Below, piece by piece: positions 1 to 49,251 of a stretch of DNA of 64,000 bases. Every line of letters starts with the position of its first letter. The first letter of the stretch is position 1. Source of the stretch: an uncultured virus (IMG/VR IMGVR_UViG_3300030330_006853). Its lineage: Duplodnaviria; Heunggongvirae; Uroviricota; Caudoviricetes. The stretch lies in the IMG/VR virus record IMGVR_UViG_3300030330_006853, one strand, 5' to 3'. Made by a program: the position numbers and the translations under genes. Under the pieces are notes generated by a model. It was not told where the DNA came from. It did not search any database and worked only from the letters and a program-made list of their open reading frames with translations.

Positions 1-3000
1 CAATGCATTAGAATCATTGTCATTTACCCACTCAGTATACGTGGTTGTTCTGTTTGTCCCTGTAACAGCGTGAATTACTCTTGCATAGTTCCAACCGTTT
101 ACTTGATCTGTTGTTGATACGCGGTATTTTCCAGTTCTGTACAGCTTAGTATAGTCCTTAACACCGTTACTAAACTCAGCGGGAGCAAAAGTGCTTAAAT
201 TTACAAACCCGGAGCCGTTACTTGCGGTAAAGATACCTGTCCCTGACCCTGGATTTCCTGTTCCAACTGATCCGGTGAGAGTCACTACGTGAAGAGTGGC
301 GCCATTGACCTCTAAGGTTAGCGTTCCCGTAAGGGCTTGATCAAACGACTTGGCAACAAAACTAGGAGAACTAGCGGCGACTTGAGGATTGAGGTCTCCT
401 TCAAAAGTAGTAGTGCCATCGAATGTTGCTGCTCGTATGTTGTTGCTGGAAGTCGCTACCTGATAGACTCCATTTACATCTACAGCGGCTCCGATGCCCG
501 CAGAAGCAGCAACAGATGTGTATCCTGATATTGCTTTTGATGCTCCGAACGAGAGCTTTGATGTTACTCCTGTAGAATCAGCATCTATTCTCGATAAAAC
601 AGGCGCCGTGGCAGTAGTTCCAGTTCCAGCCCCGAAGCTTACTTCTATTTCATCAACCTGTCCTGTCCAAGATGCGTCAGCTTCAACTCTCATGCAAATA
701 TACTCGTTATTTGCAATTCCCTGGACACCGAAGTTTGCATTATTTATCGCGTTGAGTGAAGAGTCTAAAGTCCCATCTAAGCATCCATTATTGTCTTCGT
801 AGCTTCCAAAACTAAAAGCAGATGCAAGGTCAAGCCATCCAGTAGATCCAGCGGTTCCGGATGGTATTTTTAAGAAAACTCGTAGTCGACTTGAATTTAG
901 AGCGGTTGAGCTTCCAACAATTGTTCCCCCGCTTCCGCTCATCGCTATTCTAGCTGTATAGTGTGTAAATCCAGTTTCATTTCTAAAGTGCCTGTAAAAA
1001 GTTCTTTGCCCAGACTGGCTTGAGTAGTTTGGATTTCCTGATGGTCCGTGAGTAACGCTTCCTCCATCAGAAGCGTTTCTAAAATCTCCGCCGAAAATAG
1101 TATTTAAAGGAGACCTGAGCGATGAAGAGAAAAACTGAAGTCCGTTGCTATGGCCCCCGTTGCTGGCAGTCATGAACACACTAGAACTCCATGCATTACC
1201 CCCTGACGTTACGTCCGACTGGGTGTTGTAAGAAGCTGACTGTATCCTAAATGTTTCTACCCTAAACTTCTCAACAAGAGCAGTAGAGCTTCCTGACAGG
1301 CCGTACATTAGTATGCCGCTGGCAGATGCTTGACCTCCTGCTGTTAAGTCTGACTTGAATGGATGTGTGACATTGACAGAAGCTGTAACAGAACCGGTAA
1401 GCATTACAGTTTGGCTTATCACGCCTACACCTGTCAGGTGGAGAACCTTGGTATGATTTTCTCCTGCACCGATTGTAGGCTTAGCCTGAGCTGAAATATT
1501 GCAGTTAGTTGTGGTAAATGTAATATTGTTAGTATCGTAAGTGTTTCGATACGCGTTAGAGACAGCGACTTTATATCTCACATTTCCAGAAATAAAATAC
1601 TCAACACCAGATAAATGGACGCTGCCCGACATTTCAGGTGTTGCAGAATTGCCAGATGCAGAAAGCGCATCAGAATTAGAATCATTAACCCATTCAATAA
1701 AATTAGTATTAAGATTTACCCCGTCCGCGAAATGCAAAATTCGAGCATAATTCCAACCGTTTCTTTGACTAGATGTAGAGATTAGATATCTTCCTGTCCT
1801 GTGCTGGAAAAAAGTGAAAGCTGATCCATCTTCTTTAACTGCAGAGCCCGTCGTAGAAAAATTAGTAAAACCTGATCCGGCTGCAGTTAGAAGCTGAGCT
1901 GATCCTGATCCTGGAGGATTAGTGCCAAATGAGGAAGACAAGCTTGCAGTTGCAATGACTGCTCCGTTAACTTCAAGATGAAGATAACCCTGCTCTCCGT
2001 TTCCAAAGCTTTGAGAAACAAAATTTAGGACAGCACCGGAAAGTCCTCTTTCAACATCAGCATTTAGAACACCTGATATACTTTGCGTCAAGTTAAAAGC
2101 TGCTATCCTAATGTTATTACTGCTGGTTGCAACCTGGTATACACCGTTTACGTCAACTGCAGTTCCAAATCCGGCGGAGTTTCCTACGTTCGTATAGCCA
2201 GATATCGAATTGGAGCTTCCAAAAGAAAGCGAAACAGTTTTTCCTGTTGCCATTGCATTAATATCGTCTAAGTTAGGGGCTGGGCTGGGTGCCAACTCCT
2301 TTAGAACTTCATTAATTTTATCTATTGCAACACCCGTGTATGTCTTGTTAGTAAAAGTCGTAAATAAGCCATCGGAATAGTCACCATCCTCGGCTGTCCC
2401 GATAGTTCCTGATATTACAACAGTATTGCTTCCCGCATCTGTGACAATCGCATTGTCAAAAGAGATAGTAGTTACGCTGCTTACAGAAGGTGACCCATCG
2501 TTCTCTTTTACAGTTATGGATCCTCCGCCGCCGCCTCCAGAGGAAGCTATTGTAACCTGGCCGTTTGATGCTGACGTAATTGTTACGTTTGAACCTGCAA
2601 CAAGATAGGTGCGACCGTCTGCAAGACGCGTAAGTGATCCTGAAAGCCCCATCGATGCAGTAACAAATCCCCCAATATGCAAATTACCATCAATAAATGC
2701 AGAGCCTGTAACATTTAAATTTGGGGTAATTCCTACTGGGCCGGTAAATTGAGTTCCGCTTACCGTTGCTACTACAGAGTCATTAATTGCAACAGTGAAA
2801 GCTCCTCCTGAGCCTCCATCAGTAGACGTAATTCCCGTCCCATCAGTAAAAACTCGTTCTCGCGTTAGTGATCCTGTTGCTGTTAGAACCAAGTAGCTAG
2901 CATTTGGATCACCAGCTCCTCCGGTGCCGGTGGACGAAATAGTCACTTGACCATTTGATGACGAAGCTATTGATATATTCTCTCCTGCTAGCAAATAGCT

Positions 3001-4911: not shown

Positions 4912-4921
4912 TTATTAGCTC

Positions 4922-7900
4922 CTAGGTGCCGTCGAGAAGACTTGCGATATCTAAAGTGTTTTGCTTTTCAGTGACAGGATAATGAAGTCGGTTTCTTGCA
5001 TGACCATCAAAATAGGGCATAGAGCTTGTGCACTCTAAGCTCATATTTGAACACTGTGTGGTCTGGTTTGGCTGCACCTTGATTCTCGAAAGAGTTCTTC
5101 CGTCATTTTCAATCATGCTAAACTTGACGGTTACCGGGCCGTCAGTTACAGAAGTAGGCTCTTGAAACCTGCCGGGCAATAGGCCAGCCCTTCCCTCGAA
5201 ATAAAACTTAGAATCTTTTCTTTGCTCAAGCCTGTCTCGAAACTGCCCGTAGGAGTTGAACCTGTAGATTGACTTTGAATTTTCAGGGAGCGCATTATAA
5301 ACTCCGTATTTCCAGCCTCTTAGATATGTTGCCCCGATCCAGGAGTTGCTTCCAGCGATTCCGTGCACAGACCCTGTCAGAGCAGCAACACCGGACCCTA
5401 CACCATACCAGTATTTATATGCTAAGCTTTGATTCATCGCTGGGATAGAAGGAGCTGGCTTTCTAAAAACTTGCAGCCCAAGGCTGGCACCCTTACTAGT
5501 GAAAGAGACTGAAATATTGTTAGACTTTCTTTCAAAGACAGCATTGTCACTCACCTTCCGGTCTGATATTGAAGTTAATGATCCTTGGGGCTGCCGATTC
5601 AGTCTTGAATAAAAGGGCTCAAACGGAAAAGATCGTAACCACCTGTCATTGCTCTGGAAAACAAAACCGTTGCTCTTATCTAGTTGCGGCCCTAGAAAAA
5701 AGAAGTTCTGGTTCGGTGATCCGTCTTTGCCGTAAACAAGTCCACCGCCGAGACGATAAGTGTCTTCTAGGGTTGGCAAGACAGTGTCGTAATAGCGCTC
5801 ATTACCGTCGATCAATTGCGTTGCACGTAGAAGAGATCCTGATCTGAAGTAATGAATACCCCTGAAACCTGCTGCGTCTACGGAGCCGTCTTTTCCATTT
5901 GCATTAGTGATCATTGATCCAGTAATCACATTTCCTACATAGCTACCTGAGAATTGTGACTTGTATGAGGTCTCGTATTGGTCTAGGCAGTTTGACTCTC
6001 CCATGGGCGACGTAGTGTCTTGAATATCCTCGTGGATAGCATCTGACGTCAAGGGTTGGTTGAGACCGTAGTGAAACTCTTTGTTGTCCTTGACAAAACT
6101 TCCATAAAGAGTTAGCTTATGAGTTCCTGGTGTGAAAGTTAGGCTTGAACCGATCGGTGAGCGGTCTTTAGCATAATCAGAAAATTTCGCCGTCATAGGT
6201 ATCTGGCACCCTAGGACGAGCTTGTCGCTCGGAAGAAGCAAATAGGGCGAGACAATACCTACCTTAGCGGGATCAGGGAGGCGCCATTGGAGGTTATTGA
6301 CTCCGCCAAATATAACATCAGACTCTACAAAAAATTCTTTGTTGCCTTTTATTGTCGAGGAAAGGAATTGACGTAGGCCTGATAATTCTCCACCAAGCCC
6401 TCTTCCTGTAAGCATGCCCAGCCCCTGGCGGCCGGCGCCTTCCCCGAAATCAAGGCCCCTTGAACCAGACACACCCTGTGAATACCTCAGTGTCATGTTA
6501 TATTTTTCTCGATAAACGGAGGGGTTTGAATCTGTTCCATTGTCCTGCCCTACTCCGAGCCCGGGCATTGCTCCCGCTGTAATTCCTGGAACTTTAACAG
6601 CACCGGATATGATCAACTTATTCGGGAGGAAAGATATATTATTCGTGTCTGGGTATTTTGGTGGTGCAAAACCAGAAGCGGCCGCATTAATATTAAGCTC
6701 TTTAGAAATTCTATCTCTAGTTGCAGGAGGTGCCGTCTGAACTACAGGTCCTCCTGTGATTGATGCTTGAAAAAACGTAACTATATCTCTTATTGTGTCC
6801 ACACGAGTTGTGTTGGCCCCTGCAGTAAGTGCAATATCTTGTGGAATAGAAGCAGTAAGCGTTCCGAATTGAATATTTTGATTGAAGCCGAAGGGAGGAG
6901 TGAGCTGCGCATAAGTCCTCTGTAACGCAGGGCTATTAAGAGAAAAACCGTCCCGCTGGTTGAGAAGGAAAAAGCTGAGAACTGCAACGTTGCTAGCAAA
7001 GGAGCTTTGGCCAAAATCAAAAGAGCAGCTTGTTTCAAAAACAATCTTTTCGCAAAGAAAAGGCTGGTTGAGAACTCCGGTCATGTGAAAAACCTGAGAA
7101 CTTGTCGCGTGAAATTTTGGATGATAAGGAAAGCCAAAGTTACTAATTGCAGCTCCGGCTCCTCCTGTGTATTTTATTTGGCCAGTAGCCGGATCTTCGC
7201 CTCGGGTGATGGAGGTGCCTTGATAAATACTGGGCGCAAAACCAAACATTGCCTCTGATAAAAAGTCTTGTCTTGTATATGTTCGAGACGGATTGGTCGC
7301 AGAACCTGAAGTAAAAAAGTCTCTCCCGCGACCGATGCCCTCCCAGCGAGAATTACTAAAATTATAGTATCCCATGGGAAATATCTTGTTAGCACCGCTG
7401 TTTACAAGCATTCCTATACGAGTTTCAACTTGCTGAGAGATATCAATCTCGATCTTTGTCTTAGATCTAAGTGAAGACTTAAATCCCAGGCCTACATCTG
7501 CTGGTGCGCTACCCGTAATATAGAACGGGTCGCTATAAGACGGAAGAGATATAACATGTAAATTTTCTTCTACAAAGGGCTTAAGATCTTCGCCTTTTGT
7601 GAACTGAATATTGGTGTCAGAGATGCCTGCGACAATTTTTCCAGAGCCTTTGAGTGTAGGCCCAGAACTGGGTGATGCGACAAGGTCATTCTGGTAGTAA
7701 GAGCCAGAGAGCGCTGCAGCTCCAAATGTGACATTTGATGAATTTCCGAAAACCAGAGTTTTTCTGTCGTCAAACTTAGCGTTGTAAACTCCTGTTCTTG
7801 AGTCGCCAGTTCGAGCTGTTGTAGGATACGACCCCGTCTTAGAGTCTCGAATACTAAGAACATTTCTAGGCAAGAGCGATATCATACCTGATCTTTTGTG

Positions 7901-8719
7901 CTGTTCTTGACTTAAGAATCCCGTTTTTACACCGTTCTTCACATCATAAAGGGCTGCAACGTCCGTAGCCGACAAAACTCTACCCGACCAGATGGCAAAT
8001 TCGTAAAAAGAAGGAGTTTGGTTTTGTGCATCTGCCCCCACAAGAGTTACTGAGCCCACTCTAATTGACGCCGATGTATTAGTCATTGCGGTGTAGCTAG
8101 AGAATACAGCTCCAGAAGTAGAAAGCGCAGTGCCATTAAGATAAAATGTGCCTCGGTCGCCTATTGTCGAGGCCGATGCATTGTAAGTTAAGACTATGTG
8201 CATCCATTGGTCGACTACTAGGGGTGCTGATGCTCCGGTAATTTCCAAGTTTTTGGCGAAGTTATTATTGCTAAAGAGGCGCGCCTTCAGAGTGCTTGCT
8301 CCGGTTGAAAAGATTTGATACTCAATATTGCCGACGTCAACCTTTGAAATAAGATTGTTGTCGCCAGACAAGGCATCTAGCTTTATCCAGAGGCTCATGC
8401 TAAAGCTTGTGTCTGAAGATCCGTCACCAAAAGACAGGTCAGCAGCGTCTTCAATCTTTACCGGGTGGGGCTTGCTAAGTTCAACCGTAGATCTAAGATT
8501 ATTCAGGCCCGAATTAACGAGAGGGCCAGAATTAGGTCTCAGCATTGCCAAGTCGGCTTCGATTAAATGCGCGCCTGTCCCTTGATCATCAAACTGCTTG
8601 CTCTCATCAGCCCGGGTCCACAAGATTAGGTTTCCAGCGGTGTAGGCGTGTCCGTTAGCTGAAGTGAAATTTCGGGTTAAGTCATATTTGATCTTTGTTA
8701 GCTCAACAACTTTAGGCAT
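4922..8719 (-). CDS. Large virion structural protein with an N-terminal LamG/concanavalin-A-like domain
   Basis: FSMSLWIK...WMHIVLTY...FYLNG...FAIWSGRVLSATDVAALY is a LamG-like pattern. The likely start is ATG 8719 (GGAGG upstream) rather than TTG 8737. It lies in the baseplate block. Confidence 0.75.
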   Translation of the reverse strand: MPKVVELTKIKYDLTRNFTSANGHAYTAGNLILWTRADESKQFDDQGTGAHLIEADLAMLRPNSGPLVNSGLNNLRSTVELSKPHPVKIEDAADLSFGDGSSDTSFSMSLWIKLDALSGDNNLISKVDVGNIEYQIFSTGASTLKARLFSNNNFAKNLEITGASAPLVVDQWMHIVLTYNASASTIGDRGTFYLNGTALSTSGAVFSSYTAMTNTSASIRVGSVTLVGADAQNQTPSFYEFAIWSGRVLSATDVAALYDVKNGVKTGFLSQEQHKRSGMISLLPRNVLSIRDSKTGSYPTTARTGDSRTGVYNAKFDDRKTLVFGNSSNVTFGAAALSGSYYQNDLVASPSSGPTLKGSGKIVAGISDTNIQFTKGEDLKPFVEENLHVISLPSYSDPFYITGSAPADVGLGFKSSLRSKTKIEIDISQQVETRIGMLVNSGANKIFPMGYYNFSNSRWEGIGRGRDFFTSGSATNPSRTYTRQDFLSEAMFGFAPSIYQGTSITRGEDPATGQIKYTGGAGAAISNFGFPYHPKFHATSSQVFHMTGVLNQPFLCEKIVFETSCSFDFGQSSFASNVAVLSFFLLNQRDGFSLNSPALQRTYAQLTPPFGFNQNIQFGTLTASIPQDIALTAGANTTRVDTIRDIVTFFQASITGGPVVQTAPPATRDRISKELNINAAASGFAPPKYPDTNNISFLPNKLIISGAVKVPGITAGAMPGLGVGQDNGTDSNPSVYREKYNMTLRYSQGVSGSRGLDFGEGAGRQGLGMLTGRGLGGELSGLRQFLSSTIKGNKEFFVESDVIFGGVNNLQWRLPDPAKVGIVSPYLLLPSDKLVLGCQIPMTAKFSDYAKDRSPIGSSLTFTPGTHKLTLYGSFVKDNKEFHYGLNQPLTSDAIHEDIQDTTSPMGESNCLDQYETSYKSQFSGSYVGNVITGSMITNANGKDGSVDAAGFRGIHYFRSGSLLRATQLIDGNERYYDTVLPTLEDTYRLGGGLVYGKDGSPNQNFFFLGPQLDKSNGFVFQSNDRWLRSFPFEPFYSRLNRQPQGSLTSISDRKVSDNAVFERKSNNISVSFTSKGASLGLQVFRKPAPSIPAMNQSLAYKYWYGVGSGVAALTGSVHGIAGSNSWIGATYLRGWKYGVYNALPENSKSIYRFNSYGQFRDRLEQRKDSKFYFEGRAGLLPGRFQEPTSVTDGPVTVKFSMIENDGRTLSRIKVQPNQTTQCSNMSLECTSSMPYFDGHARNRLHYPVTEKQNTLDIASLLDGT

Positions 8720-28034: not shown

Positions 28035-28035
28035 A

Positions 28036-29528: not shown

Positions 29529-29531
29529 TTT

Positions 29532-33187: not shown

Positions 33188-33198
33188 AAATTATCTTA

Positions 33199-34935: not shown

Positions 34936-34936
34936 C

Positions 34937-35527: not shown

Positions 35528-35539
35528 ATCTTAGCAATC

Positions 35540-36343: not shown

Positions 36344-36344
36344 T

Positions 36345-37061: not shown

Positions 37062-37108
37062 ACTTTCGACATTTCTTCCAGGTAGTTTCCACAGCAGCAA
37101 ATACCTTA

Positions 37109-38810: not shown

Positions 38811-38811
38811 T

Positions 38812-41331: not shown

Positions 41332-42035
41332 TTTAAAAAGCCACGTGATCGGACTAAGTTAACTGTTGCTATTTGAGTTGACTCGCACCAGTCCCTTTTT
41401 TCGCTAGGTATTGACGCAGAATCAATGTTGTATAGATAGCAGACTTCATCGATGTATTTTCTCTTTTCTGTCAAAGATAAAATTGGTAAAAGTAGCGCCT
41501 GGTCATAGCCTCTCTTAAACCATTCGCCATTCATGTCTTGAAAGTTTTTGACATTTATCTTTCTTAATATGCTTAGCTTAAAAGTCCTAAAGTGCGAAGC
41601 GCACCAGGGCCACTGATATGGGTTGACTTTCTCGGGCATTGCCCTTGAAATATTCATTCCATTTACATCCCAACTATGTGCAGTCCATACAACATCGTGA
41701 CCTGATTCGTATTGTTCTAATACTTTTGATACGGTGTCTGGATTACATAGAGAATCGTCGCCATCGACGACACCTATTACTGCGTCTTCTTCTTCTATTT
41801 GTAGGCAAGCGTCCACTATGTTTTTAAGTGCAAACTTCTTGGAGGAGTTCTTTATTATAGTAAACCTCTCATCACCCTGAGTTTGTCGCTCTATTTCTTC
41901 CCAGGTTCCATCACTAGAAATATCGTCAATTATAATGTGATGCCATCTATCATCGTTCTGAGCCTTTATCGAATTTATCAGTGTCTCAATGTTAGGCTTT
42001 GCATTAAAGCAGGGAGATATTATAAAGAGTTTCAA
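41328..42035 (-). CDS. Glycosyltransferase, GT2
   Basis: IISPCFNA; IIDDISSDGT; VDGDD. Confidence 0.92.
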   Translation of the reverse strand: MKLFIISPCFNAKPNIETLINSIKAQNDDRWHHIIIDDISSDGTWEEIERQTQGDERFTIIKNSSKKFALKNIVDACLQIEEEDAVIGVVDGDDSLCNPDTVSKVLEQYESGHDVVWTAHSWDVNGMNISRAMPEKVNPYQWPWCASHFRTFKLSILRKINVKNFQDMNGEWFKRGYDQALLLPILSLTEKRKYIDEVCYLYNIDSASIPSEKRDWCESTQIATVNLVRSRGFLK

Positions 42036-43984
42036 AGCTTAAATCCTGGCCAGTTTTGAATGTTACTTGGAAGATTAATGTCTAGGCTTAGATGTCCAGT
42101 TTCCTGATTGCCATCCCATTTTGTGTGCCATATCCAACCCCCAAGCTTTTCTTTCATAAGAGCTGCTCGATCTCGGATCATTTCATCTGTAACATCTTCC
42201 CATTTAGCGTCAAACATCATATTGTTTTCTGGCGTATCAATTACTTCTTTGTCAAACAGCGACTTCCAGTGCTTGCCCCAGTAGTCTCGATAAGTTTTTA
42301 TTTTTCTTTCTAGATTCCACCAGGAAAAATGGTGAACAACTGGAAATCCTGCGCAAATTTGATTTAGCCAAGCCTCGTAGGCTTTTCTAGCATTTTCATC
42401 TGTTGCACACATCTGGCGAGCTTGCTCCACATCAGGTGTAACAAAAGTTCCAAACGGAACAGGTTCATAGCTGTCATTTCTAATGTAGTCGCAACCGTCA
42501 GAACCCTGTGCAGAATAAAGGTCTCCCGACTCATCAAATCTTCTTAGGCTGGAGGGTATTCCGTGTGTAATGTAAGGCTTATTTCTACTTAGGCGCCACT
42601 TCCAGGGATTAACATCAAATCTAACTTTTTCTGGGCCTCCCCAGTATTCAATCACGGGAAGAGCAATTAAGTCGGTATTGCTTGGGAAGTTTTTGCATAT
42701 GTCCTTTATAATTTGATATTGGCTTTCATCAACGATTTCATCGCAATCCATTTGCCAACAAAACTCTTGTGTGCATAAAGATCTTGCCAAAGCTTTTTGT
42801 GCCCCATCAAAAACTGCAAATCTCTTGTGCTCCCAGTCTCTTTCTTGCCTATACGCCTTCAAAGAATCATTTTTCTCTGACCACACTTGAAGCTCTTCCC
42901 ATGTTCCGTCATCAGATCCCCCATCCACCACAACAACTTCGTCACAAAAACCTAAAAGAGACTCAATAGTTTGCCTCCAAGGATAGTTGTGACGATTACA
43001 GTTTAATGTTGTCGTGTATCCAGAAATCTTTGGTGAATATTCCATATCTGACTTTATTCCATTCCAAAACCTTGATCGTGCTGCATAAAGATAAGACTCG
43101 GTATCGAGCCTATCATCCGTATTAAACCATAGTTCATCTTTGTGTTGAACATTATCATTCAATGCTAGTTTACAATTAAGCATTTTAGCTTCAATGACTA
43201 TTCTAGGGCAAGTATCGCCACCCTTAGGTAGAAATACCAAGCCTTCGCTTTGGGCTAGCTTTTCTAATAAGTCTCCATAGGGTAGATTCCAGACTTCTTC
43301 ATATTCCTTATTGTTTTCTTCGCACCATTTTTTGCAGTCTTCTACTCCCTTTATCCATGATGTGGAACCTAAAACAATCCACTTATCATTCTTTTTTCCT
43401 TCATGCTTTTTGTTAAGAAGTTTTACAGATGCAAAAAAGTCATCGTCAAAAACAGAAGAAAGCACTGTGTTGTGTCGCTCACCATAAAAAGGAAATCTTT
43501 CGTGGTGGGTTTTCATTTGCTTTTCTGACATCCACCAGAGCGATCGTGCACCATAGAAAAACGCTGATATCATTTTTCCCCACATCTGGTCATGACAATC
43601 ACATGGTTTTACCTCTATTTCTCTGTGCTTCTCAATCGATCTATACTTGCAAAACTTATAATCAAATTCAACTATAGAATACTGAAGATTTGCTACGATT
43701 GTAGGCAATAAGCTTGTGTCTAAAGCAGATATGTTTCCGAAGACCCAATATTTATCTTTTCCCTCCTCCAAAACCTGAATTGTTACATCCTTAGCGTGAA
43801 CTTTGTCATATTCAGTTGGGCAAGAATCAATCAAAGCTTGAAACGTTAGCTCGGCTCCACCAGTATAATCAGCGGCGAACATGTCAGAAACAAAAACTAT
43901 TTTGGAGTCAGGAGTAATTAGCTTTTTGTTATTAAAGCTAAACCCACCAAAAATATTTTGATTAAAATCCATTAGGCTCTCCAT
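42032..43984 (-). CDS. Bifunctional glycosyltransferase (N-terminal GT-B/GT4-like plus C-terminal GT2)
   Basis: GGAE...KGV...DTCPRIVIEAKMLNC, then VVVDGGSDDGT...QMDCDE. Confidence 0.85.
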   Translation of the reverse strand: MESLMDFNQNIFGGFSFNNKKLITPDSKIVFVSDMFAADYTGGAELTFQALIDSCPTEYDKVHAKDVTIQVLEEGKDKYWVFGNISALDTSLLPTIVANLQYSIVEFDYKFCKYRSIEKHREIEVKPCDCHDQMWGKMISAFFYGARSLWWMSEKQMKTHHERFPFYGERHNTVLSSVFDDDFFASVKLLNKKHEGKKNDKWIVLGSTSWIKGVEDCKKWCEENNKEYEEVWNLPYGDLLEKLAQSEGLVFLPKGGDTCPRIVIEAKMLNCKLALNDNVQHKDELWFNTDDRLDTESYLYAARSRFWNGIKSDMEYSPKISGYTTTLNCNRHNYPWRQTIESLLGFCDEVVVVDGGSDDGTWEELQVWSEKNDSLKAYRQERDWEHKRFAVFDGAQKALARSLCTQEFCWQMDCDEIVDESQYQIIKDICKNFPSNTDLIALPVIEYWGGPEKVRFDVNPWKWRLSRNKPYITHGIPSSLRRFDESGDLYSAQGSDGCDYIRNDSYEPVPFGTFVTPDVEQARQMCATDENARKAYEAWLNQICAGFPVVHHFSWWNLERKIKTYRDYWGKHWKSLFDKEVIDTPENNMMFDAKWEDVTDEMIRDRAALMKEKLGGWIWHTKWDGNQETGHLSLDINLPSNIQNWPGFKL

Positions 43985-44033: not shown

Positions 44034-44049
44034 TTAAGTTGATTTTCCG

Positions 44050-47000
44050 CTATCCGGAGTGATATGTGCAACTTATCCTTTTAGTGCTTCCGGGCTCATC
44101 AGACCAAGTCACAGACTCAGTAGACTTAGCAACTGTGTAATTTCTAAGAATTCCGTCAGACTGCTTCATTGCATGACCTGAAGTATTTGAAGAGCATAGA
44201 TAGTCACCAATGGAAATGTCGCCCCCTTCATCACAAACAAGAACATGACCGTCACCAAGAGCAAAAATTTGGTGAGGTGCTTCAGATGGACCTGTCCCGC
44301 TCAGAGGAGTATTATAAACCCCAATTACGCCAGGATCTTGACTTGACGTAGACTCAGAAACATTATAGAAAACCTGCCTCGAGCGAGGCATAGATCCTGT
44401 AAATGTTGAATGTATTTTTACAACAGTTCCGTATTCATAAGAGCTTACACCTTCTGGGAGGGCTGCGTAGTGGCCGCCCGTGAAGGGTCCGTATGTAACA
44501 GTTCCGCCTGTAGATGTAATCGAACCAATTGAAGTTCCGTCGCCGTCAAAGAAACCAACTGCAGTTGAAGTTCCTGAGCCGCCGTCGTCACCATACTGAA
44601 TTTTCAATCCTTTTTTATTGACGTTATTTCCGTCATTAACAAAAACACTTACAAAGTCTGATCTTGAACCTGACACATCTAAGTACGTGTCAGGGGTGTG
44701 ATCGCCGATTCCAACATACCCGAGAGTATTTACCCTCAGCGCTGCAGATCCCGCTGTAAAGATCTGGACTCCGAAAGAATCAAGGGTTCCTATTAAAAGA
44801 TCATTACTAACTGCATTTGTAACATCGTGACCGTCAGGAGCTTTACCTGTCCCAGGTGACTGACCTATTAGGCTTCTAACAGCGCCGCCATCTCCTAAGA
44901 GCTTAATAAACGGAACGTCAAATTCACCTGAATTGTCTGTATCTGCTTCTAGTCTTAACGATACGCTTCCTGTGCTGCTTACGTGCAAAGACCCGCTGGG
45001 ATTTGTTGTTCCTATACCTAATCGACCTTCTCCTGGCAGGGTAACATTTTTTGTTCCAGAAAGAGCCAGCACAAGCTCTGGGTTGGCTCCTGAAGAGGTG
45101 CTTTTCTTTACATGAAACGAAAGATCGCCGGTGGAAAAGTTCCCCTTGTCTGTAAAGATCATTGATGCACCAACGTTATTATTTGATGTGCCAAGCGCAA
45201 TTCCTGCTGAAGCTAACGTGCTTGTGTCTTCTTGCCTAACAACCAGACCGTATCTTGCTGGATTTCCAGCTTGAACTATAGAGCTTTTTCCTTTAGCTTG
45301 AACAATCTCTAGCGGAGCTTGAGGAGATGTAGTGTTAATTCCTAGCTTGATACCACCAGAGCCAGAAATATAGTTGTTTGTTCCTGCCCTCGGAGTTAAT
45401 CTTATGTTTGCTTGAGATCCCAAGGCGAGAGCCTCATATATATCAAGAGCACCGTCATCCTCGCCGTTCATATTGTAGACTTTGGCAAGTGTTGCATTAT
45501 TGCCATCGGGAGCCTTGATTGGTCCTTCGAGCTGGATTGCAGCTCCTGACACGTGAAGCGCATGAGATGGATTCAATCCAATTCCAATATCACCAGTGGA
45601 CTTCCTGACCATGAATGCTCTTGGCCGGCTTCCGCCGTGTGCTAAAAGAGTTGCACCTGCACTTGCAGCATCAATAGGACCAGCAAATTCTGGGCGAACA
45701 GTTACGCCTTCGTATCCTATTCTCAGCTGCTCATCAAGCTTACCTGTCGTGTTTTGAGTGAAGAAAGCAAGCCTTCCATAATTTTGCGTGCTGCTAGCAG
45801 AATCTTTCCTACCTTCAATAGCAGCGCCTGGTACAGATCCGTTATCGAAAGGAATTTTAAATAGAATTCTTGTTCCGCCTTTAGTGCTGCTAACAGATCC
45901 TGATCTATCGAGTATAAGCGCGGTTGTTGTTGCTGCTGTATTTGACTTTGCTCTAAAATGAATAGGGCTGTATGTCCTAAGAACTTCTATATTAGACCCT
46001 GTAGCGCTAGCTCGAAGAGAACCCCCGATAGAACCACTAAAAAGAACATCTCCTCCAAATACTGCAGTGCTGATAGTTCCTCTATTGTCAGCCGGATCAG
46101 GCTTGACAGAACCTGAGACGAAGAAGCTTGTGTCTAATCCAGGTAGGGGTGGCATGTGACCTGAGTATTGGGCTGATGCACTTCCGAAAGTCGCTACACC
46201 TGATACTGCTAATAAAGTCTGTTGCGCACCATCTGCAAGAATAGCGCTGTTTATTTGAACTGGGTGAATATTTGCATTGATGATCGCGCCTGCTGCAGAA
46301 CCTCCACCATCATACGCGCTGTCAAGTGTGGCTGCTGCAGAACTTATGGTCCACTGTCTTGTTGTATGATTATAAGTAGCAGATGTTGATGAATCACCGG
46401 CAATAAAAGGCTGACCTGTAGGAGTTCTAGATATAGAGCCAGTAAGCCCAGGAATAGAACTTGGTTGCATTCCAAAGCTAATAAATCCACCCTGGGATGC
46501 TGTAACTGATGTTGTCGCTGTGACTGATCCGGCGGTTCGTAAGGATGTATCTCCCATCAACCCGCCTGGGACTGCAAGAGCTTGAATCGTTCCTGATACT
46601 ACTAAGTCTCCTCCAAAGAGAGCAGATCCCGTTGGTGCTTGAGCACCTGGCATCATTGAAGAATTCTTTGAACCTGAAACATAGAAGAAGACATTAAGAC
46701 CTTTTCCGAATCCTGCTGTATTAGAGTCTGCATCTCCTACAGGATTTGCAAAAGCAACAGAAGATGTTGTTTCTCCTCTAAAGCCTGTTCCTGCTGTTAC
46801 AGCAAAAATACCGTCCCCACCTGATGGGCCTTGAACTCCTTGAATACCCTGTATTCCCTGCGAACCTGTTGGACCCTGTGTTCCATCTGCGACTCGGTAA
46901 ATAGCAATAGACTCAGAGAAACTATCGCTAGATGCAGTTACGAATACTGGAAATCTTGTCCTATCTGCGTTGTTGTAACTGAAGACTATCGAAGCTTCGC

Positions 47001-49251
47001 CAGTGACTTTTCCACCGGACGTAGTGCTTGTATTGGAGAAAGCTGAAAACCTGCTTCCAGATAGATTTGTTCCATCACTGCCAGAGGCCTGAAAGTCGAG
47101 GGCTGTCATAGCATTTGATTGACTTACATAAGTTGCTGTAATCTTAACTGAAGCTGGATTTGACGTTAGAGAACCAGAAGGCGTGATTGAAAATATAAGC
47201 GCATTAGATGAAATGCTAAGACTTGGCGGGGCTGACCCTGTAAGTCCCTGGACTCCTTGAATACCCTGGATACCTTGTTCACCTTGCGGCCCCTCTGTGA
47301 CTCGATAGATCGCCACAGATTTTGTAAAGCTGTCACTAGATGCAGTTACAAATACTGGATATCTGGTCTTGTCAGCATTGTTGTAACTGAAGACTATCGA
47401 AGCTTCGCCAGTGACTTTTCCTCCCGATGTTGTGCTTGTATTAGAAAATGCAGAAAATCTACTTCCGGATAAGTTAGTTCCATCACTTCCAGAGACCTGG
47501 AAGTCAAGAGCTGTCATAGCATTTGACTGGCTCACATAAGTTGCTGTGAGCTTAACTGATGTGGGGTTTGATGTTGTTGAACCTGACGGGACGATTGAAA
47601 AGATAAGAGCATTAGCGGATAGATCTAAACTTGGAACAGCAGATCCCGTAAGGCCCTGAGAACCTGTAACTCCTTGAACACCTTGAATACCCTGGATACC
47701 TTGAATTCCCTGGTCTCCCTGGGGCCCTTCTGAAACTCTGAATATTGTTAGTGACTCAGAGAAACTATCACTAGAAGCAGTTACGAATACTGGGAATCTT
47801 GTCCTGTCAGCATTGTTATAACTAAATACAATAGATGCCTCTCCTGTAACTTTTCCACCTGAGGTTGTGCTTGTATTGGAGAAAGCTGAAAATCTACTTC
47901 CGGATAAGTTAGTTCCATCACTTCCAGAGACCTGGAAGTCAAGAGCTGTCATAGCATTTGATTGACTTACATAAGTTGCCGTAATCTTAACCGAAGTTGG
48001 ATTCGAAGTTGCTGAGCCTGATGGGACGATTGAAAAGATAAGTGAGTTTGAGGAAACGCTTAGACTGGGAGGCGCGGATCCAGTGAGACCCTGGAGTCCT
48101 TGAATACCCTGTATTCCCTGCGAACCTGTTGGACCCTGTGTTCCATCTGCGACTCGGTAAATAGCAATAGACTCAGAGAAACTATCGCTAGATGCAGTCA
48201 CAAAAACCGGGTATCGTGTTCTATCAGCATTGTTATAGCTAAATACTATTGATGCTGCTCCGGTGACTTTTCCTCCGGACGTAGTGCTAGTGTTAGAAAA
48301 TGCAGAAAATCTACTTCCGGATAAGTTAGTTCCATCACTTCCAGAGACCTGGAAGTCAAGAGCTGTCATAGCGTTCGATTGGCTTACGTAAGTTGCTGTA
48401 ATCTTAACAGACGACGGGTTTGATGTTAATGATCCCGAAGGAGTGATTGAAAATATAAGAGCATTAGATGATAGGTCAAGGCTTGGTGGAGCTGATCCTG
48501 TGAGACCCTGAAGCCCCTGTATACCTTGGATACCTTGATCACCTTGCGGACCTTCTGCAACGCGGTAAATCGTTACTGTTTTTGTAAAGCTGTCACTAGA
48601 TGCAGTTACAAAGATCGGATATCGGGTTCTATCAGCGTTGTTATATGTGAATACCACAGATGCATCACCAGTAACTTTTCCACCTGATGTTGTGCTTGTA
48701 TTGGAGAAAGCTGATAGTCTTCCTGAGAGGTCTGAGCCGTCACTACCTGATACTTTATAATCGGCCAAAACCATAGCATTTGACTGGCTCACATAAGTTG
48801 CTGTGAGCTTAACTGATGTGGGGTTTGATGTTGTTGAACCTGACGGGACGATTGAAAAGATAAGTGAGTTTGAAGAGAGATCAAGGCTTGGCGGAGCTGA
48901 TCCTGTGAGACCCTGGAGTCCTCTAGGGCCTATAGGCCCGTCTGAACCCGTAACTATATTTCCCTTCATGGCTCCGCTGAAGAAAACGTCTCCAATGAAG
49001 ACCATTGTCCCTCTTACTCTGTTACCTGACGCTCTTGACATGGAGCCTGATGTTCCTGATACTACAAGAAATACGTCCTCACCTATTGTAGAAGGAATAA
49101 ATCCGCCTCTCGCAGGAGACTTAATGCCACCTGTCAAATCATTGGCGACGGAAGCGCTATAAATCATGAATGCTGGCTCATTACCACTAGAGCCAGAGAG
49201 GATGAACCTGTTACCTCTTATTCTGTCTGCTTTAAAATCAGATGTTGCCAT
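44050..49251 (-). CDS. Tail fibre protein with five tandem ~135-145-aa domains separated by short collagen (Gly-X-Y) linkers and a C-terminal intramolecular-chaperone/peptidase-G2-like domain
   Basis: GxQ triplet runs; LGIGTTNPSGSLHV-type fibre repeats; C-terminal FTGGH...GDISIGDYLCSS..GHAMKQ...YTVAK. Confidence 0.85.
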   Translation of the reverse strand: MATSDFKADRIRGNRFILSGSSGNEPAFMIYSASVANDLTGGIKSPARGGFIPSTIGEDVFLVVSGTSGSMSRASGNRVRGTMVFIGDVFFSGAMKGNIVTGSDGPIGPRGLQGLTGSAPPSLDLSSNSLIFSIVPSGSTTSNPTSVKLTATYVSQSNAMVLADYKVSGSDGSDLSGRLSAFSNTSTTSGGKVTGDASVVFTYNNADRTRYPIFVTASSDSFTKTVTIYRVAEGPQGDQGIQGIQGLQGLTGSAPPSLDLSSNALIFSITPSGSLTSNPSSVKITATYVSQSNAMTALDFQVSGSDGTNLSGSRFSAFSNTSTTSGGKVTGAASIVFSYNNADRTRYPVFVTASSDSFSESIAIYRVADGTQGPTGSQGIQGIQGLQGLTGSAPPSLSVSSNSLIFSIVPSGSATSNPTSVKITATYVSQSNAMTALDFQVSGSDGTNLSGSRFSAFSNTSTTSGGKVTGEASIVFSYNNADRTRFPVFVTASSDSFSESLTIFRVSEGPQGDQGIQGIQGIQGVQGVTGSQGLTGSAVPSLDLSANALIFSIVPSGSTTSNPTSVKLTATYVSQSNAMTALDFQVSGSDGTNLSGSRFSAFSNTSTTSGGKVTGEASIVFSYNNADKTRYPVFVTASSDSFTKSVAIYRVTEGPQGEQGIQGIQGVQGLTGSAPPSLSISSNALIFSITPSGSLTSNPASVKITATYVSQSNAMTALDFQASGSDGTNLSGSRFSAFSNTSTTSGGKVTGEASIVFSYNNADRTRFPVFVTASSDSFSESIAIYRVADGTQGPTGSQGIQGIQGVQGPSGGDGIFAVTAGTGFRGETTSSVAFANPVGDADSNTAGFGKGLNVFFYVSGSKNSSMMPGAQAPTGSALFGGDLVVSGTIQALAVPGGLMGDTSLRTAGSVTATTSVTASQGGFISFGMQPSSIPGLTGSISRTPTGQPFIAGDSSTSATYNHTTRQWTISSAAATLDSAYDGGGSAAGAIINANIHPVQINSAILADGAQQTLLAVSGVATFGSASAQYSGHMPPLPGLDTSFFVSGSVKPDPADNRGTISTAVFGGDVLFSGSIGGSLRASATGSNIEVLRTYSPIHFRAKSNTAATTTALILDRSGSVSSTKGGTRILFKIPFDNGSVPGAAIEGRKDSASSTQNYGRLAFFTQNTTGKLDEQLRIGYEGVTVRPEFAGPIDAASAGATLLAHGGSRPRAFMVRKSTGDIGIGLNPSHALHVSGAAIQLEGPIKAPDGNNATLAKVYNMNGEDDGALDIYEALALGSQANIRLTPRAGTNNYISGSGGIKLGINTTSPQAPLEIVQAKGKSSIVQAGNPARYGLVVRQEDTSTLASAGIALGTSNNNVGASMIFTDKGNFSTGDLSFHVKKSTSSGANPELVLALSGTKNVTLPGEGRLGIGTTNPSGSLHVSSTGSVSLRLEADTDNSGEFDVPFIKLLGDGGAVRSLIGQSPGTGKAPDGHDVTNAVSNDLLIGTLDSFGVQIFTAGSAALRVNTLGYVGIGDHTPDTYLDVSGSRSDFVSVFVNDGNNVNKKGLKIQYGDDGGSGTSTAVGFFDGDGTSIGSITSTGGTVTYGPFTGGHYAALPEGVSSYEYGTVVKIHSTFTGSMPRSRQVFYNVSESTSSQDPGVIGVYNTPLSGTGPSEAPHQIFALGDGHVLVCDEGGDISIGDYLCSSNTSGHAMKQSDGILRNYTVAKSTESVTWSDEPGSTKRISCTYHSG
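46820..48897 (-). repeat. Five tandem coding repeats of 405-435 nt
   Basis: Units start at 48897, 48492, 48075, 47640 and 47232 (A-P/V-PSL). Long identical nucleotide stretches occur between units, e.g. 46861-46920 = 48121-48180. Confidence 0.95.

What the first reader, a model, noticed from the sequence alone, without database searches (positions are those of the whole stretch)
1..49251. Candidate phage virion glycosylation system: [ST]-G-S/[ST]-A-S sequon-like enrichment in structural proteins flanking a 23-kb glycan cluster
Seen: outer virion proteins are saturated with SGS/TGS (and SAS/TAS), usually after a hydrophobic residue (VSGS, ITGS, LTGS, VTAS). By-eye [ST]GS counts are about 16 in the 1182-aa protein, 7 in the 516-aa protein, 9 in the 1271-aa protein, 4 in the 312-aa protein, and dozens in the two fibres. 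I found none in the gp6-like wedge (613 aa) or the spike (580 aa), and about one in PrkA. The motif occurs in unrelated folds (LamG, collagen linkers, beta repeats), so it is not a single repeat family. These genes bracket a cluster with about 8 glycosyltransferase-like genes. Known: some phages and giant viruses glycosylate virion proteins, and Ser-Gly is the glycosaminoglycan attachment context in eukaryotes. Inference: the motif is an acceptor sequon for phage-encoded O-glycosylation that coats the particle.
Basis: partly seen in the sequence, partly recalled or inferred. Interest (0 to 1): 0.85.

Follow-up and report, generated by a model that had tools for sequence, protein, structure and literature searches.

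The report
Ser/Thr-Gly-Ser tag on phage tails
The outer tail proteins of this uncultured giant phage carry the three-residue pattern Ser/Thr-Gly-Ser about six times more often than chance, right beside the phage's own sugar-making genes, so the pattern may mark where the phage sugar-coats its tail, although no chemistry has shown this.

Summary
Observation confirmed. In the four non-repetitive outer baseplate proteins SGS is 21 against 3.5 expected and TGS 15 against 2.3. SSG, GSS, GSG, SGT and the 47 other ORFs sit at chance. SAS/TAS is not significant here. Five glycosyltransferases plus one weak candidate are supported, not eight.

The excess is conserved in 85 related loci and in the cultured phages immuto and Mel-JY01. 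It is absent from T4. Every motif-rich lineage keeps a GT4 gene pair; in this clade it lies in the baseplate operon (30 of 30 loci). The two proteins are predicted to bind each other. The sugar island between conserved flanks differs completely among three relatives and encodes no membrane proteins.

Against the reading: the excess sits at fixed turn and strand-end sites. One lineage keeps the GT pair but has lost most motifs. The major capsid protein of immuto is not enriched.

The sequon reading is plausible but unproven (about 0.4). The scan flagged this pattern before on related DNA (e1-6091973).

The parts
1..4911 (-). Fibre protein, 1637 aa seen (ORF runs off the window); 19 [ST]GS, including three copies of a G-L/I-SGS-LT-x-L-x-DGR unit
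   Evidence: (19 vs 7.0, z 4.5); shares a domain with the other fibre
4922..8737 (-). 1271-aa outer baseplate/fibre protein with a LamG domain; 9 [ST]GS
   Evidence: 9 vs 2.6, z 4.1; PF13385 E 4.9e-12
8712..9650 (-). 312-aa virion protein of no known family; 4 [ST]GS
   Evidence: 4 vs 0.54, z 4.6; orthologues 36 vs 9.2 over 17 proteins
9660..13208 (-). 1182-aa large wedge-like protein with a LamG domain; 16 [ST]GS, mostly in loops just after or before strands
   Evidence: (16 vs 1.8, z 10.5); orthologues 515 vs 86.9 over 43 proteins; T700-S701-G702-S703 invariant in 44 sequences
13208..14758 (-). 516-aa outer baseplate protein: chain of beta-sandwich domains (CBM-like jelly roll, then Ig/FN3-like); 7 [ST]GS
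   Evidence: 7 vs 0.97, z 6.3; pLDDT 96
14767..16608 (-). gp6-like baseplate wedge protein, 613 aa; 0 motifs; orthologues depleted
   Evidence: (PF04865); orthologues 17 vs 52.9 over 84 proteins
16608..17078 (-). gp25-like wedge protein, 156 aa; 0 motifs
   Evidence: PF04965; orthologues 3 vs 10.1 over 78 proteins
17756..19498 (-). 580-aa hub/spike-position protein; 0 motifs
   Evidence: orthologues 23 vs 26.0 over 40 proteins
20841..22001 (-). GT4b: 386-aa group-1 glycosyltransferase, second gene of the conserved pair
   Evidence: PF00534 32.1 bits, cut-off 26.4; E273 invariant, E281 in 90% or more
22001..23257 (-). GT4a: 418-aa group-1 glycosyltransferase, first gene of the pair; 58-70% identical across relatives
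   Evidence: PF00534 43 bits; E285 and E293 invariant
23332..24174 (-). PD-(D/E)XK nuclease, conserved just upstream of the GT4 pair
24175..41331 (-). Variable part of the sugar island: nucleotide-sugar genes. They include a NeuB-like synthase (29532-30386), two PseF-like cytidylyltransferases (30376-31035, 32465-33187), a LegC/PseC-like aminotransferase (35540-36379), a formyltransferase (36345-37100), an AroB-related cyclase (33199-34299), SDRs, a UDP-sugar dehydrogenase (25056-25913), an epimerase/dehydratase (24175-25056), an FkbM methyltransferase (38812-39723), a Maf-like candidate (39716-40441) and a GT4-like protein (40441-41331)
   Evidence: no transmembrane segment; replaced by other gene sets in relatives
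41328..42035 (-). 235-aa GT2 glycosyltransferase
   Evidence: PF00535 E 5.2e-18
42032..43984 (-). 650-aa protein with a central GT2 domain; conserved far flank of the island; its family is seen almost only in viruses
   Evidence: (642- and 643-aa counterparts in G002 and G003)
44050..49251 (-). 1733-aa collagen-like fibre with five diverged repeat units; 37 [ST]GS (about 21 after collapsing the repeats)
   Evidence: 37 vs 8.6; PF01391

Best explanation
The window is part of an uncultured jumbo T4-like myovirus. Its best-supported reading is that the phage glycosylates the outward-facing proteins of its own tail in the host cytoplasm.

Shown:
- The ordered tripeptide [ST]-G-S, usually between hydrophobic residues, is about six-fold over-represented in the outer baseplate and fibre proteins only.
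- This holds across a large clade of aquatic phages.
- All of these phages keep two GT4 glycosyltransferase genes; in this clade the pair lies in the baseplate operon.
- A sugar island without membrane proteins differs between relatives.

Inferred:
- GT4a and GT4b act as a two-subunit soluble enzyme that puts the first sugar on a Ser (or Ser/Thr) of exposed [ST]-G-S turns.
- The GT2 and GT4 enzymes and the nucleotide-sugar pathways of the variable island then build a lineage-specific glycan. In this phage that glycan includes a nonulosonic (sialic-acid-like) sugar.
- The result is a serotype-like sugar layer on the sheath periphery, baseplate and fibres. It does not cover the capsid shell.

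Which residue is modified, which sugar is used and what the coat is for (shielding, host recognition or avoidance of debris) are not shown.
For: 1. Order-specific excess confined to a subset of virion proteins. SGS is 21 vs 3.5 and TGS 15 vs 2.3, while other orders of the same letters and the 47 other ORFs are at chance.

2. Conserved across relatives. In 85 loci p516 has 496 vs 69.3, p1182 515 vs 86.9, p312 36 vs 9.2 and p1271 54 vs 11.5. gp6 has 17 vs 52.9, gp25 3 vs 10.1, the hub 23 vs 26.0 and GT4a 0 vs 3.7. In 109 full-length representatives of the p516 family (of the 150 listed; 921 hits at E<=1e-3) the ratio is 5.7.

3. Not a general property of myovirus tails. Sixteen T4 structural proteins hold 7 instances against about 10 expected, with a highest z of 1.3. 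T4 has no PF00534 match.

4. Exterior only. In cultured immuto the sheath has 7 vs 1.3, protein 214 has 12 vs 1.2 and the outer baseplate and fibres reach z 3.5-9.0. The major capsid protein has 1 vs 0.6, and the portal, tape measure and hub have 0.

5. The motif is not needed for the fold. Motif-poor family members carry D/E/N/K-rich tripeptides at the same columns. The motif occurs mid-strand, at hairpin turns, at helix C-caps and in loops.

6. GT4 pair.
- It is present in the order PDDEXK-GT4a-GT4b-baseplate in 30 of 30 loci that have at least 8.6 kb upstream.
- Homologues are found elsewhere in the genomes of the motif-rich phages immuto and Mel-JY01.
- LR756508 has no GT4b and no clear excess.
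- Both proteins keep an E-x7-E pair.
- Predicted GT4a-GT4b binding scores 0.85, with the best of 3 controls at 0.01. That mark was reached by 116 of 157 solved complexes and 2 of 215 mismatched pairs. The counts hold only roughly because my own alignments were used. The runs agree in at least 98% of contacts and the partner's pLDDT is at least 89.

7. Sugar island. It has conserved flanks and wholly different contents in the window, G002 and G003. No credible membrane protein appears among 27, 32 and 14 island proteins. Only a DegT and an RmlA-like enzyme touch the hydropathy threshold. It therefore encodes no flippase, polymerase or lipid-carrier transferase of its own.

8. Precedent. Phage-encoded virion glycosylation is reported for mycobacteriophages (as summarised in PMC12363180 and PMC12619734; passages read). 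Clade-specific glycan clusters for virion fibrils are reported in Megavirinae (PMC10117803, abstract read).
Against: - No sugar has been observed on any protein. Everything here is sequence statistics and gene context.
- The excess sits at about 15 recurrent alignment columns (427 of 510 instances). The other 44 columns hold 83 instances, about the 89 expected by chance. There is therefore no sign of free gain of sites.
- Many sites are strand-turn-strand junctions, where Gly followed by Ser has a structural rationale. In p1182, 85% of motif residues are coil against 52% overall.
- The lineage of L110/L111 keeps intact GT4a (60% identity) and GT4b (46%). Its p516 homologue has 1 vs 0.7 and two further large proteins have 1 each. 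Only the p1182 homologue stays enriched, at 6 vs 1.2.
- The GT-motif co-occurrence rests on a few deep lineages and is confounded by descent.
- The Maf-like candidate is below Pfam's cut-off (20.8 vs 34.6 bits).
- NeuB-like and PseF-like scores are below NCBIfam equivalog cut-offs, so the sugar is not identified.
- This scan has proposed several different 'sequons' in other phages. That is a warning that Ser/Thr/Gly-rich loops in outer virion proteins may be a general habit.
Confidence: 0.4

Rival explanations
1. The motif is a structural or surface-property habit of this phage lineage. [ST]-G-S makes tight turns and strand ends in beta-sandwich and fibre domains, or gives an uncharged hydrophilic surface. 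On this reading the motif has nothing to do with the glycosyltransferases.
For: The excess is concentrated at about 15 fixed columns, and the other columns are at chance. Most instances lie at strand ends, hairpin turns or loops. One site overlies the conserved Gly of the LamG x-G-x-[IL]-D-E-x-R element (consensus; that LamG consensus is recalled, not tested). A lineage with intact GT4 genes has lost most motifs. The scan has flagged several different small-residue motifs in other phages.
Against: The fold does not need the motif: homologues at 37-40% identity carry charged tripeptides at the same sites. T4 and LR756508 tail proteins show no excess. General turn preferences would also favour G-N, G-D and G-T. 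Here GD is 0.53x, GN 1.0x and GT 1.0x, and SGT and TGT are at chance. Inner baseplate proteins are depleted rather than neutral. The motif also occurs mid-strand and at helix ends.
Confidence: 0.33
2. The sugar genes do act, but on another acceptor, and the motif excess is unrelated. Possible acceptors are virion proteins at other sites, phage DNA bases, or host envelope glycans made with host membrane machinery.
For: Phage glycosyltransferase clusters that modify DNA can lie among structural genes (bioRxiv 10.1101/2023.12.21.572611, abstract and passages read). A PD-(D/E)XK nuclease is conserved beside GT4a. A weak ParB-like hit (E 9.8e-4) lies in the island at 27198-27680. The GT pair persists where motifs are few.
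Against: No cytosine methyltransferase, TET/5mYOX or thymidylate-synthase family was found among the window's 53 ORFs of 100 aa or more. That preprint reports these as the usual neighbours of DNA glycosyltransferases. No island protein is membrane-bound in any of three lineages. A complex nonulosonic-acid pathway is not known to me as a DNA modification (recalled). Only 64 kb of a genome estimated at 350-480 kb was seen, so base-modification genes could lie elsewhere.
Confidence: 0.17
3. Another lineage-specific reader recognises the motif. It could be a protein kinase (the PrkA homologue at 55781-57712), an assembly chaperone or a host defence sensor.
For: A PrkA/SpoVR/DUF444 triad lies 6 kb from the fibre gene. 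The motif is Ser/Thr-based.
Against: No call links PrkA to the motif, and I did not test whether the triad is conserved in motif-rich relatives. The GT4 pair, not PrkA, is the gene set embedded in the baseplate operon.
Confidence: 0.05

Closest known systems
Virion glycosylation of mycobacteriophages (Che8, Corndog, Myrna; Freeman et al. 2023). The paper itself is not held; I know it only through passages in PMC12363180 and PMC12619734
   Same: Phage-encoded soluble glycosyltransferases would modify the phage's own virion proteins in the cytoplasm.
   Different: In the mycobacteriophages the glycans sit at the C-termini of capsid and tail-tube subunits (PMC12619734 passage). Here the candidate sites are dispersed internal tripeptides in outer baseplate, sheath and fibre proteins, and the capsid protein of a cultured relative is not enriched. 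This phage also has a 23-kb sugar island and a GT4 pair. Homology of the enzymes was not tested.
Fibril glycosylation clusters of Megavirinae giant viruses (PMC10117803, abstract read)
   Same: A virus-encoded cluster of nucleotide-sugar pathways plus glycosyltransferases (6 to 33 genes there, about 27 here). It makes bacterial-type rare sugars, and its content is specific to each clade. The three relatives compared here also differ completely.
   Different: Those viruses are eukaryotic viruses with chemically proven glycans on capsid fibrils. Here the virus is a tailed phage, the glycans are unproven and a short candidate sequon is involved.
Flagellin O-glycosylation with nonulosonic acids by Maf or FlmG transferases (PMC7591256 and bioRxiv 10.1101/2022.03.25.485807, abstract openings in the search listing only)
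   Same: A cytoplasmic, lipid-carrier-free transfer of pseudaminic- or legionaminic-type sugars onto Ser/Thr of a surface filament protein. The window has a NeuB-like synthase, two PseF-like cytidylyltransferases and a LegC/PseC-like aminotransferase.
   Different: The Maf-type domain is only a sub-threshold hit. Relatives G001-G003 have no NeuB but keep the motif, so a nonulosonic acid cannot be the conserved first sugar.
GtfA-GtfB O-GlcNAc transferase of serine-rich-repeat adhesins (recalled; not retrieved by any search)
   Same: Two adjacent GT-B-type proteins predicted to form a complex that would act on serines of a surface fibre protein.
   Different: phmmer against solved structures did not list GtfA or GtfB for either protein (17 other GT4 hits for GT4a, 0 hits for GT4b). 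Both subunits here keep the E-x7-E pair, whereas GtfB is non-catalytic (recalled). The targets are dispersed tripeptides, not long Ser-rich repeats.
Autotransporter heptosyltransferases TibC/Aah acting on serines of beta-helix adhesins (recalled; named as closest known in earlier scan notes)
   Same: Cytoplasmic multi-site O-glycosylation of serines in turns of a beta-rich surface protein.
   Different: No such enzyme family was detected in the window. The enzymes here are GT4 and GT2.

Membership tests
GT4 / 'Glycosyl transferases group 1' (for GT4a and GT4b) | Match to PF00534 above Pfam's gathering score | tested here: met
   GT4a 43.0 bits and GT4b 32.1 bits against a cut-off of 26.4
GT4 / 'Glycosyl transferases group 1' (for GT4a and GT4b) | Conserved E-x7-E pair in the C-terminal domain (a signature recalled from knowledge of retaining GT4 enzymes) | tested here: met
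   GT4a E285 and E293 are invariant in 31 sequences. GT4b E273 is invariant and E281 is conserved in 90% or more of 35 sequences
Mycobacteriophage-type virion glycosylation | Phage-encoded glycosyltransferases | tested here: met
   Five Pfam-supported GTs
Mycobacteriophage-type virion glycosylation | Glycans at the C-termini of capsid and tail-tube subunits | tested here: not met
   Candidate sites are internal and dispersed. The major capsid protein of immuto has 1 vs 0.6 expected. The tail tube was not identified
Mycobacteriophage-type virion glycosylation | Glycan demonstrated chemically on virion proteins | not testable with these tools
   Needs virions and mass spectrometry
Maf-type flagellin nonulosonic-acid glycosylation | Nonulosonic-acid synthase plus CMP-activating enzyme | tested here: met
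   PF03102 246 bits and PF02348 92 and 47 bits. The scores are below NCBIfam equivalog cut-offs, so the exact sugar is unknown
Maf-type flagellin nonulosonic-acid glycosylation | Maf transferase domain (PF01973) | tested here: inconclusive
   39716-40441: 20.8 bits against a cut-off of 34.6, covering profile positions 17-167 of 171. There was no informative hit among solved structures
Maf-type flagellin nonulosonic-acid glycosylation | The system goes together with its target | tested here: not met
   Relatives G001-G003 have no NeuB match (0 of 3) but keep the motif excess
Megavirinae-like virion glycan cluster | Clustered virus-encoded nucleotide-sugar pathways and GTs whose content is clade-specific | tested here: met
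   Window: NeuB/PseF/LegC-like set. G002: GDP-mannose dehydratase, RmlA/C/D-like, GT6, GT11, GT2. G003: GTs, a methyltransferase and GNAT only
Megavirinae-like virion glycan cluster | Glycans shown on virion fibrils | not testable with these tools
   No virions available
Wzx/Wzy- or ABC-type envelope polysaccharide locus (host-surface modification) | Membrane proteins: initiating lipid-carrier transferase, flippase, polymerase or transporter | tested here: not met
   In a 19-residue hydropathy scan only a DegT (window) and an RmlA-like enzyme (G002) touch the threshold, among 27, 32 and 14 island proteins. No such Pfam family was found
DNA sugar hypermodification cluster | Neighbouring C5-methyltransferase with 5mYOX, or a ThyS homologue (as described in bioRxiv 10.1101/2023.12.21.572611) | tested here: not met
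   None among the 53 window ORFs. The rest of the genome was not seen
Eukaryotic glycosaminoglycan Ser-Gly attachment context | Ser-Gly with acidic flanks (recalled) | tested here: not met
   The flanks are hydrophobic at -1 and +3, and S-G-G and S-G-T are not enriched
GtfA/GtfB-type two-protein O-glycosyltransferase | Two GT-B proteins that bind each other | tested here: met
   Prediction only. Score 0.85, best of 3 controls 0.01. The mark was reached by 116 of 157 solved complexes and 2 of 215 mismatched pairs (roughly, because my own alignments were used). Runs agree in at least 98% of contacts and partner pLDDT is at least 89
GtfA/GtfB-type two-protein O-glycosyltransferase | Sequence relationship to GtfA/GtfB, and a non-catalytic second subunit | tested here: not met
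   GtfA and GtfB are not among the solved-structure hits. Both subunits keep E-x7-E

The most novel reading that the evidence does not exclude
A large, abundant clade of aquatic myoviruses, including jumbo phages and the cultured phages immuto and Mel-JY01, carries a sequon-directed virion glycosylation system. A soluble GT4a-GT4b heterodimer encoded in the baseplate operon would prime serines in exposed hydrophobic-[ST]-G-S-hydrophobic turns of sheath, baseplate and fibre proteins. A hypervariable island that behaves like an O-antigen locus would then build lineage-specific glycans: nonulosonic acids here, and fucose, rhamnose and GT6/GT11 products in a relative. Phage tails would then have 'serotypes'.
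Probability: 0.3. Interest if true: 0.85.

Novelty: new variant of a known kind. Interest (0 to 1): 0.62.

Why it matters
If the reading is true, tailed phages outside the actinobacteriophages would decorate their host-recognition apparatus with self-made, rapidly diversifying glycans at a short readable tag. That would change how tail-fibre specificity, phage serology and cryo-EM densities are interpreted. It would give a sequence rule for predicting glycosites in metagenomic phages. It would also explain why large sugar islands sit inside structural operons.

The idea can be tested directly, because two cultured phages (Flavobacterium phage immuto and Microcystis phage Mel-JY01) share both the motif excess and the GT4 pair.

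If the reading is false, the result is still a clean example of a lineage-specific, order-specific tripeptide bias confined to exterior virion proteins, and that bias would need another explanation.

Tried and rejected
Explanations rejected:
- Composition alone.
- Dipeptide bias alone: SGS and TGS are still about 2x.
- A DNA-level repeat: 54 different 9-mers encode the 92 motifs.
- One repeated domain family: the six proteins share no BLAST similarity apart from a domain common to the two fibres.

Searches that gave nothing:
- blastn of the baseplate region against phage records found no match.
- No whole genome is held for the window.
- NeuB was found in 0 of 3 related contigs.
- Close relatives of the motif-poor family members P0068, P0075 and P0087 were not found in viral contigs. 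P0068 was then found in metagenome contigs.
- PHROGs gave no names for 27 of 30 large ORFs of G002 and G003. The capsid, sheath and tube of those relatives could not be identified, so immuto's annotation was used instead.
- The Maf-like ORF had no informative match among solved structures.
- Tandem Repeats Finder sees only 1.9 copies of a 417-bp unit in the collagen-like fibre. The five protein-level copies are too diverged at DNA level.

Papers:
- Freeman et al. 2023 is not held.
- No paper in the library names Mel-JY01.
- PMC12014285 (marine phage proteomics) mentions glycosylation only for animal viruses in the passages shown.
- The 'moraphage' paper PMC12619734 reports four core glycosyltransferase groups in large aquatic phages of Bacteroidota. 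I could not tell whether that is this lineage, because it names none of the records used here.
- My literature searches listed no paper reporting a sequon for phage virion O-glycosylation. I read only the listings and the passages cited above.


Full report
**What the window is.** All 53 ORFs of at least 100 aa that I treated as genes lie on the minus strand. Pfam and PHROGs identify several modules.
- A T4-like baseplate module: a gp25-like protein at 16608-17078 and a gp6-like protein at 14767-16608.
- Large downstream proteins: two with LamG domains, plus two fibres, one of them collagen-like.
- A 23.1-kb block of sugar genes at 20841-43984.
- Beyond the block: PhoH, PrkA/SpoVR/DUF444 and an M23 peptidase.

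There is no DNA-level match among 50,697 phage records. The gp6-like protein finds only six records, at 31-32% identity. These are four entries of Flavobacterium phage immuto, Microcystis phage Mel-JY01 and the 484-kb uncultured phage LR756508. Related IMG/VR contigs of 28-77 kb are rated 8-19% complete, which implies genomes of roughly 350-480 kb. The 516-aa protein has 921 representatives at E<=1e-3 in a 50%-clustered library. The lineage is therefore abundant and uncultured.

- Within-protein shuffles give z 4.1-10.5 for the six proteins named. They give nothing for the gp6-like and 580-aa proteins.
- In the four non-repetitive proteins SGS is 21 against 3.49 expected and TGS 15 against 2.33.
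- The same residues in other orders (SSG, GSS, GSG, SGG) and the variants SGT and TGT are at chance.
- So are SGS and TGS in the 47 other ORFs, at 5 vs 5.4 and 3 vs 3.0.
- Correcting for dipeptide frequencies leaves a two-fold excess.
- The motif is encoded by 54 different 9-mers.
- Hydrophobic residues are over-represented at -1 and +3.

- SAS/TAS is not significant in the window.
- About 16 of the 37 instances in the collagen-like fibre are extra copies of a diverged repeat unit.
- Pfam supports five glycosyltransferases plus one sub-threshold Maf-like ORF, not eight.

**Conservation and specificity.** The excess is a property of orthogroups, not of this genome alone. The table gives observed against expected counts over 85 related loci.

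| Orthogroup | Observed | Expected | Ratio |
|---|---|---|---|
| p516 | 496 | 69.3 | 7.2x |
| p1182 | 515 | 86.9 | 5.9x |
| p312 | 36 | 9.2 | 3.9x |
| p1271 | 54 | 11.5 | 4.7x |
| gp6-like | 17 | 52.9 | 0.32x |
| gp25-like | 3 | 10.1 | 0.30x |
| hub | 23 | 26.0 | 0.89x |

These sequences are related, so the totals are not independent events.

The more distant cultured phages immuto and Mel-JY01 show the same excess in the proteins downstream of their gp6 homologues, with z 3.5-11.6. The flanks are again hydrophobic. LR756508 does not show it, apart from one 482-aa protein. Sixteen T4 structural proteins hold 7 instances against about 10 expected.

In immuto, where the record is annotated, the enriched proteins are the sheath (7 vs 1.3), an unnamed 373-aa protein (12 vs 1.2), and the outer baseplate and fibres. 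The major capsid protein (1 vs 0.6), portal, tape measure and hub are not enriched. The signal therefore marks exterior tail parts. It does not mark 'the particle' as a whole.

**Where the motif sits.**
- AlphaFold2 on a 110-sequence alignment gives a very confident model of the 516-aa protein (pLDDT 96, pTM 0.92). It is a chain of beta-sandwich domains. Foldseek matches polysaccharide-binding modules and Ig/FN3-like domains.
- Its seven motifs lie in varied settings. Two are mid-strand (310, 376). One is a hairpin turn (302). Two are at helix ends (71, 356). One starts a strand (265). One lies in a loop just after a short strand (283).
- The 1182-aa protein folds less confidently (pLDDT 71.8). 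There, 85% of motif residues are coil against 52% overall, typically directly after or before a strand.
- I could not read coordinates, so exposure is inferred, not measured.

Across 110 family members the 510 instances fall in 59 alignment columns. Fifteen recurrent columns hold 427 of them. Each of these carries the motif in at most 52 of the 110 sequences, with alternates such as SGT, SAS, TSS and TGT. The other 44 columns hold 83 instances, close to the 89 expected by chance. The selection is therefore site-specific. It is not a free scatter of sites.

**A natural experiment.** Some family members have almost no motif. One of them (P0068) was traced to metagenome contigs L110 and L111.
- These contigs keep the synteny PDDEXK-GT4a-GT4b-hub-gp6-p516. 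GT4a is 60% and GT4b 46% identical to the window's.
- Their p516 homologue has 1 instance (0.7 expected). Two further large proteins have 1 each. Only the p1182 homologue is still enriched, at 6 vs 1.2.
- At the recurrent columns, motif-poor members carry Asp/Glu/Asn/Lys-rich tripeptides.

This shows that the fold does not need the motif and that the sites tolerate charged residues, as exposed positions would. It also shows that the GT pair is kept where few motifs remain. That weakens a strict one-to-one link between the pair and the motif.

**The glycosyltransferase pair.**
- In 30 of 30 loci with enough upstream sequence, GT4a and GT4b lie in the same order between a PD-(D/E)XK nuclease and the baseplate genes. 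GT4b was seen in 8 of 9 loci with partial upstream sequence.
- GT4a is among the most conserved proteins of the region, at 58-70% identity.
- Homologues of both exist in immuto and Mel-JY01, elsewhere in their genomes and next to GT2 genes. LR756508 has only a GT4a homologue.
- Both proteins keep an E-x7-E pair.
- A complex prediction supports, but does not show, that they bind. The score is 0.85 and the best of 3 controls 0.01. That mark was reached by 116 of 157 solved complexes and 2 of 215 mismatched pairs, which holds only roughly because my own alignments were used. The runs agree in at least 98% of contacts, and the partner's pLDDT is at least 89.
- Neither protein lists GtfA or GtfB among its solved-structure hits. 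A pass from memory of that complex is therefore unlikely, and membership of that family is not claimed.

**The sugar island.** The island has the same flanks in the window, G002 and G003. One flank is a 642-650-aa protein with a GT2 domain. The other is the nuclease plus GT4 pair. The contents between the flanks are wholly different.
- Window: a NeuB-like synthase, two PseF-like cytidylyltransferases, a LegC/PseC-like aminotransferase, a formyltransferase and an AroB-related cyclase.
- G002: GDP-mannose dehydratase, RmlA/C/D-like enzymes, UDP-GlcNAc 2-epimerase, and GT6, GT11 and GT2 enzymes.
- G003: only transferases, a methyltransferase and a GNAT-like protein.

NCBIfam scores are below equivalog cut-offs, so the sugars are not identified. 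No island protein in any of the three lineages has a credible transmembrane segment. The island therefore encodes no envelope-polysaccharide export or polymerisation machinery of its own. Its products are most simply built on a soluble acceptor. Among the window's ORFs there is no cytosine methyltransferase, TET-like dioxygenase or thymidylate-synthase homologue. A preprint on DNA glycosylation reports those as the usual neighbours of DNA glycosyltransferases. Most of the genome is unseen, however.

**Weighing the readings.** The sequon reading explains several things together.
- The order-specific excess.
- Its restriction to exterior tail proteins.
- The depletion in inner baseplate proteins.
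- The dispensability of the motif for the fold.
- The lineage restriction, which matches a GT4 pair lodged in the baseplate operon.
- A membrane-free, fast-changing sugar island.

The structural reading explains the fixed sites and the turn positions. It also explains why motifs can be lost without losing the GT pair. It does not explain why only this order of residues is favoured, why only this lineage shows it, or why only exterior proteins carry it.

I put the sequon reading at about 0.4 and the purely structural reading at about 0.33. A reading in which the sugars go elsewhere gets about 0.17, and other readers of the motif about 0.05.

**Comparison with what is known.**
- Phage-encoded virion glycosylation is documented for mycobacteriophages, at the C-termini of capsid and tail-tube subunits (passages in PMC12619734 and PMC12363180). 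The original paper is not held.
- Clade-specific glycan clusters for virion fibrils are documented for Megavirinae (PMC10117803, abstract).
- The present case would differ in three ways: a short internal sequon on tail proteins, a two-subunit GT4 enzyme in the baseplate operon, and an O-antigen-like variable island in a tailed phage.
- My four literature searches listed no paper describing such a sequon.
- This scan has noted the same kind of pattern before. It did so once on DNA sharing words with this 516-aa protein (e1-6091973) and several times with other motifs in other phages. Those are unchecked AI notes and I do not count them as support.

Noticed in passing
window 55781-60235: A PrkA / SpoVR / DUF444 gene triad with very strong Pfam scores (E 5.5e-147, 4.8e-125, 5.3e-111) lies in a phage genome. 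A PIN-PhoH fusion lies at 49874-51202. G003 also has the PIN-PhoH fusion.
   Followed up: no
L014:13154-17494 and L015:1-3753 (contig G003): The large terminase carries an intein with a LAGLIDADG domain. The T4-like portal carries an intein with an HNH domain. A further intein/HNH ORF lies at L014:18843-20000.
   Followed up: no
L011:8150-8857 and L011:10393-11262 (contig G002): The relative's sugar island encodes a GT6 enzyme (E 5.9e-25) and a GT11 fucosyltransferase-like enzyme (E 5.3e-33), together with a GDP-mannose dehydratase. In animals this enzyme pair makes histo-blood-group-type glycans (that last point is recalled).
   Followed up: no
window 14767-17078 and orthologues in 85 loci: The inner baseplate proteins are depleted in [ST]GS rather than neutral: gp6-like 17 vs 52.9 and gp25-like 3 vs 10.1. 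This could reflect avoidance of the motif, but the sequences are related and I made no phylogenetic correction.
   Followed up: partly
window 33199-34299: An AroB-related putative sugar-phosphate cyclase (TIGR04425, 339 bits, below the cut-off of 400) sits inside the sugar island next to a second cytidylyltransferase. It may point to a carbocyclic or otherwise unusual sugar.
   Followed up: no
window 25056-26218: The UDP-sugar dehydrogenase ORF is short (285 aa, matching only the end of the N-terminal domain and the central domain). The ORF just upstream of it is a 102-aa HAD/phosphatase-like protein. G002 has a similar 288-aa form, so the short form looks conserved rather than broken.
   Followed up: no
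window 1-4911 and 44050-49251: The unit G-[LI]-S-G-S-L-T-x-L-x-D-G-R recurs three times in the first fibre (residues 86, 627, 757). The second fibre alternates collagen-like G-x-y runs with five diverged units of about 135-140 aa.
   Followed up: partly
L012:4869-6062 (contig G003): A 398-aa protein of no family, with 5 [ST]GS against 0.8 expected, lies inside G003's glycosyltransferase island. It could be a further substrate encoded among the enzymes.
   Followed up: no
window 27198-28034: A 160-aa ORF with a weak ParB-like PHROG hit (E 9.8e-4) lies next to a 117-aa cupin inside the sugar island. ParB-like proteins accompany some phage DNA-modification enzymes (title and significance text of PMC13229309 in the search listing).
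   Followed up: no
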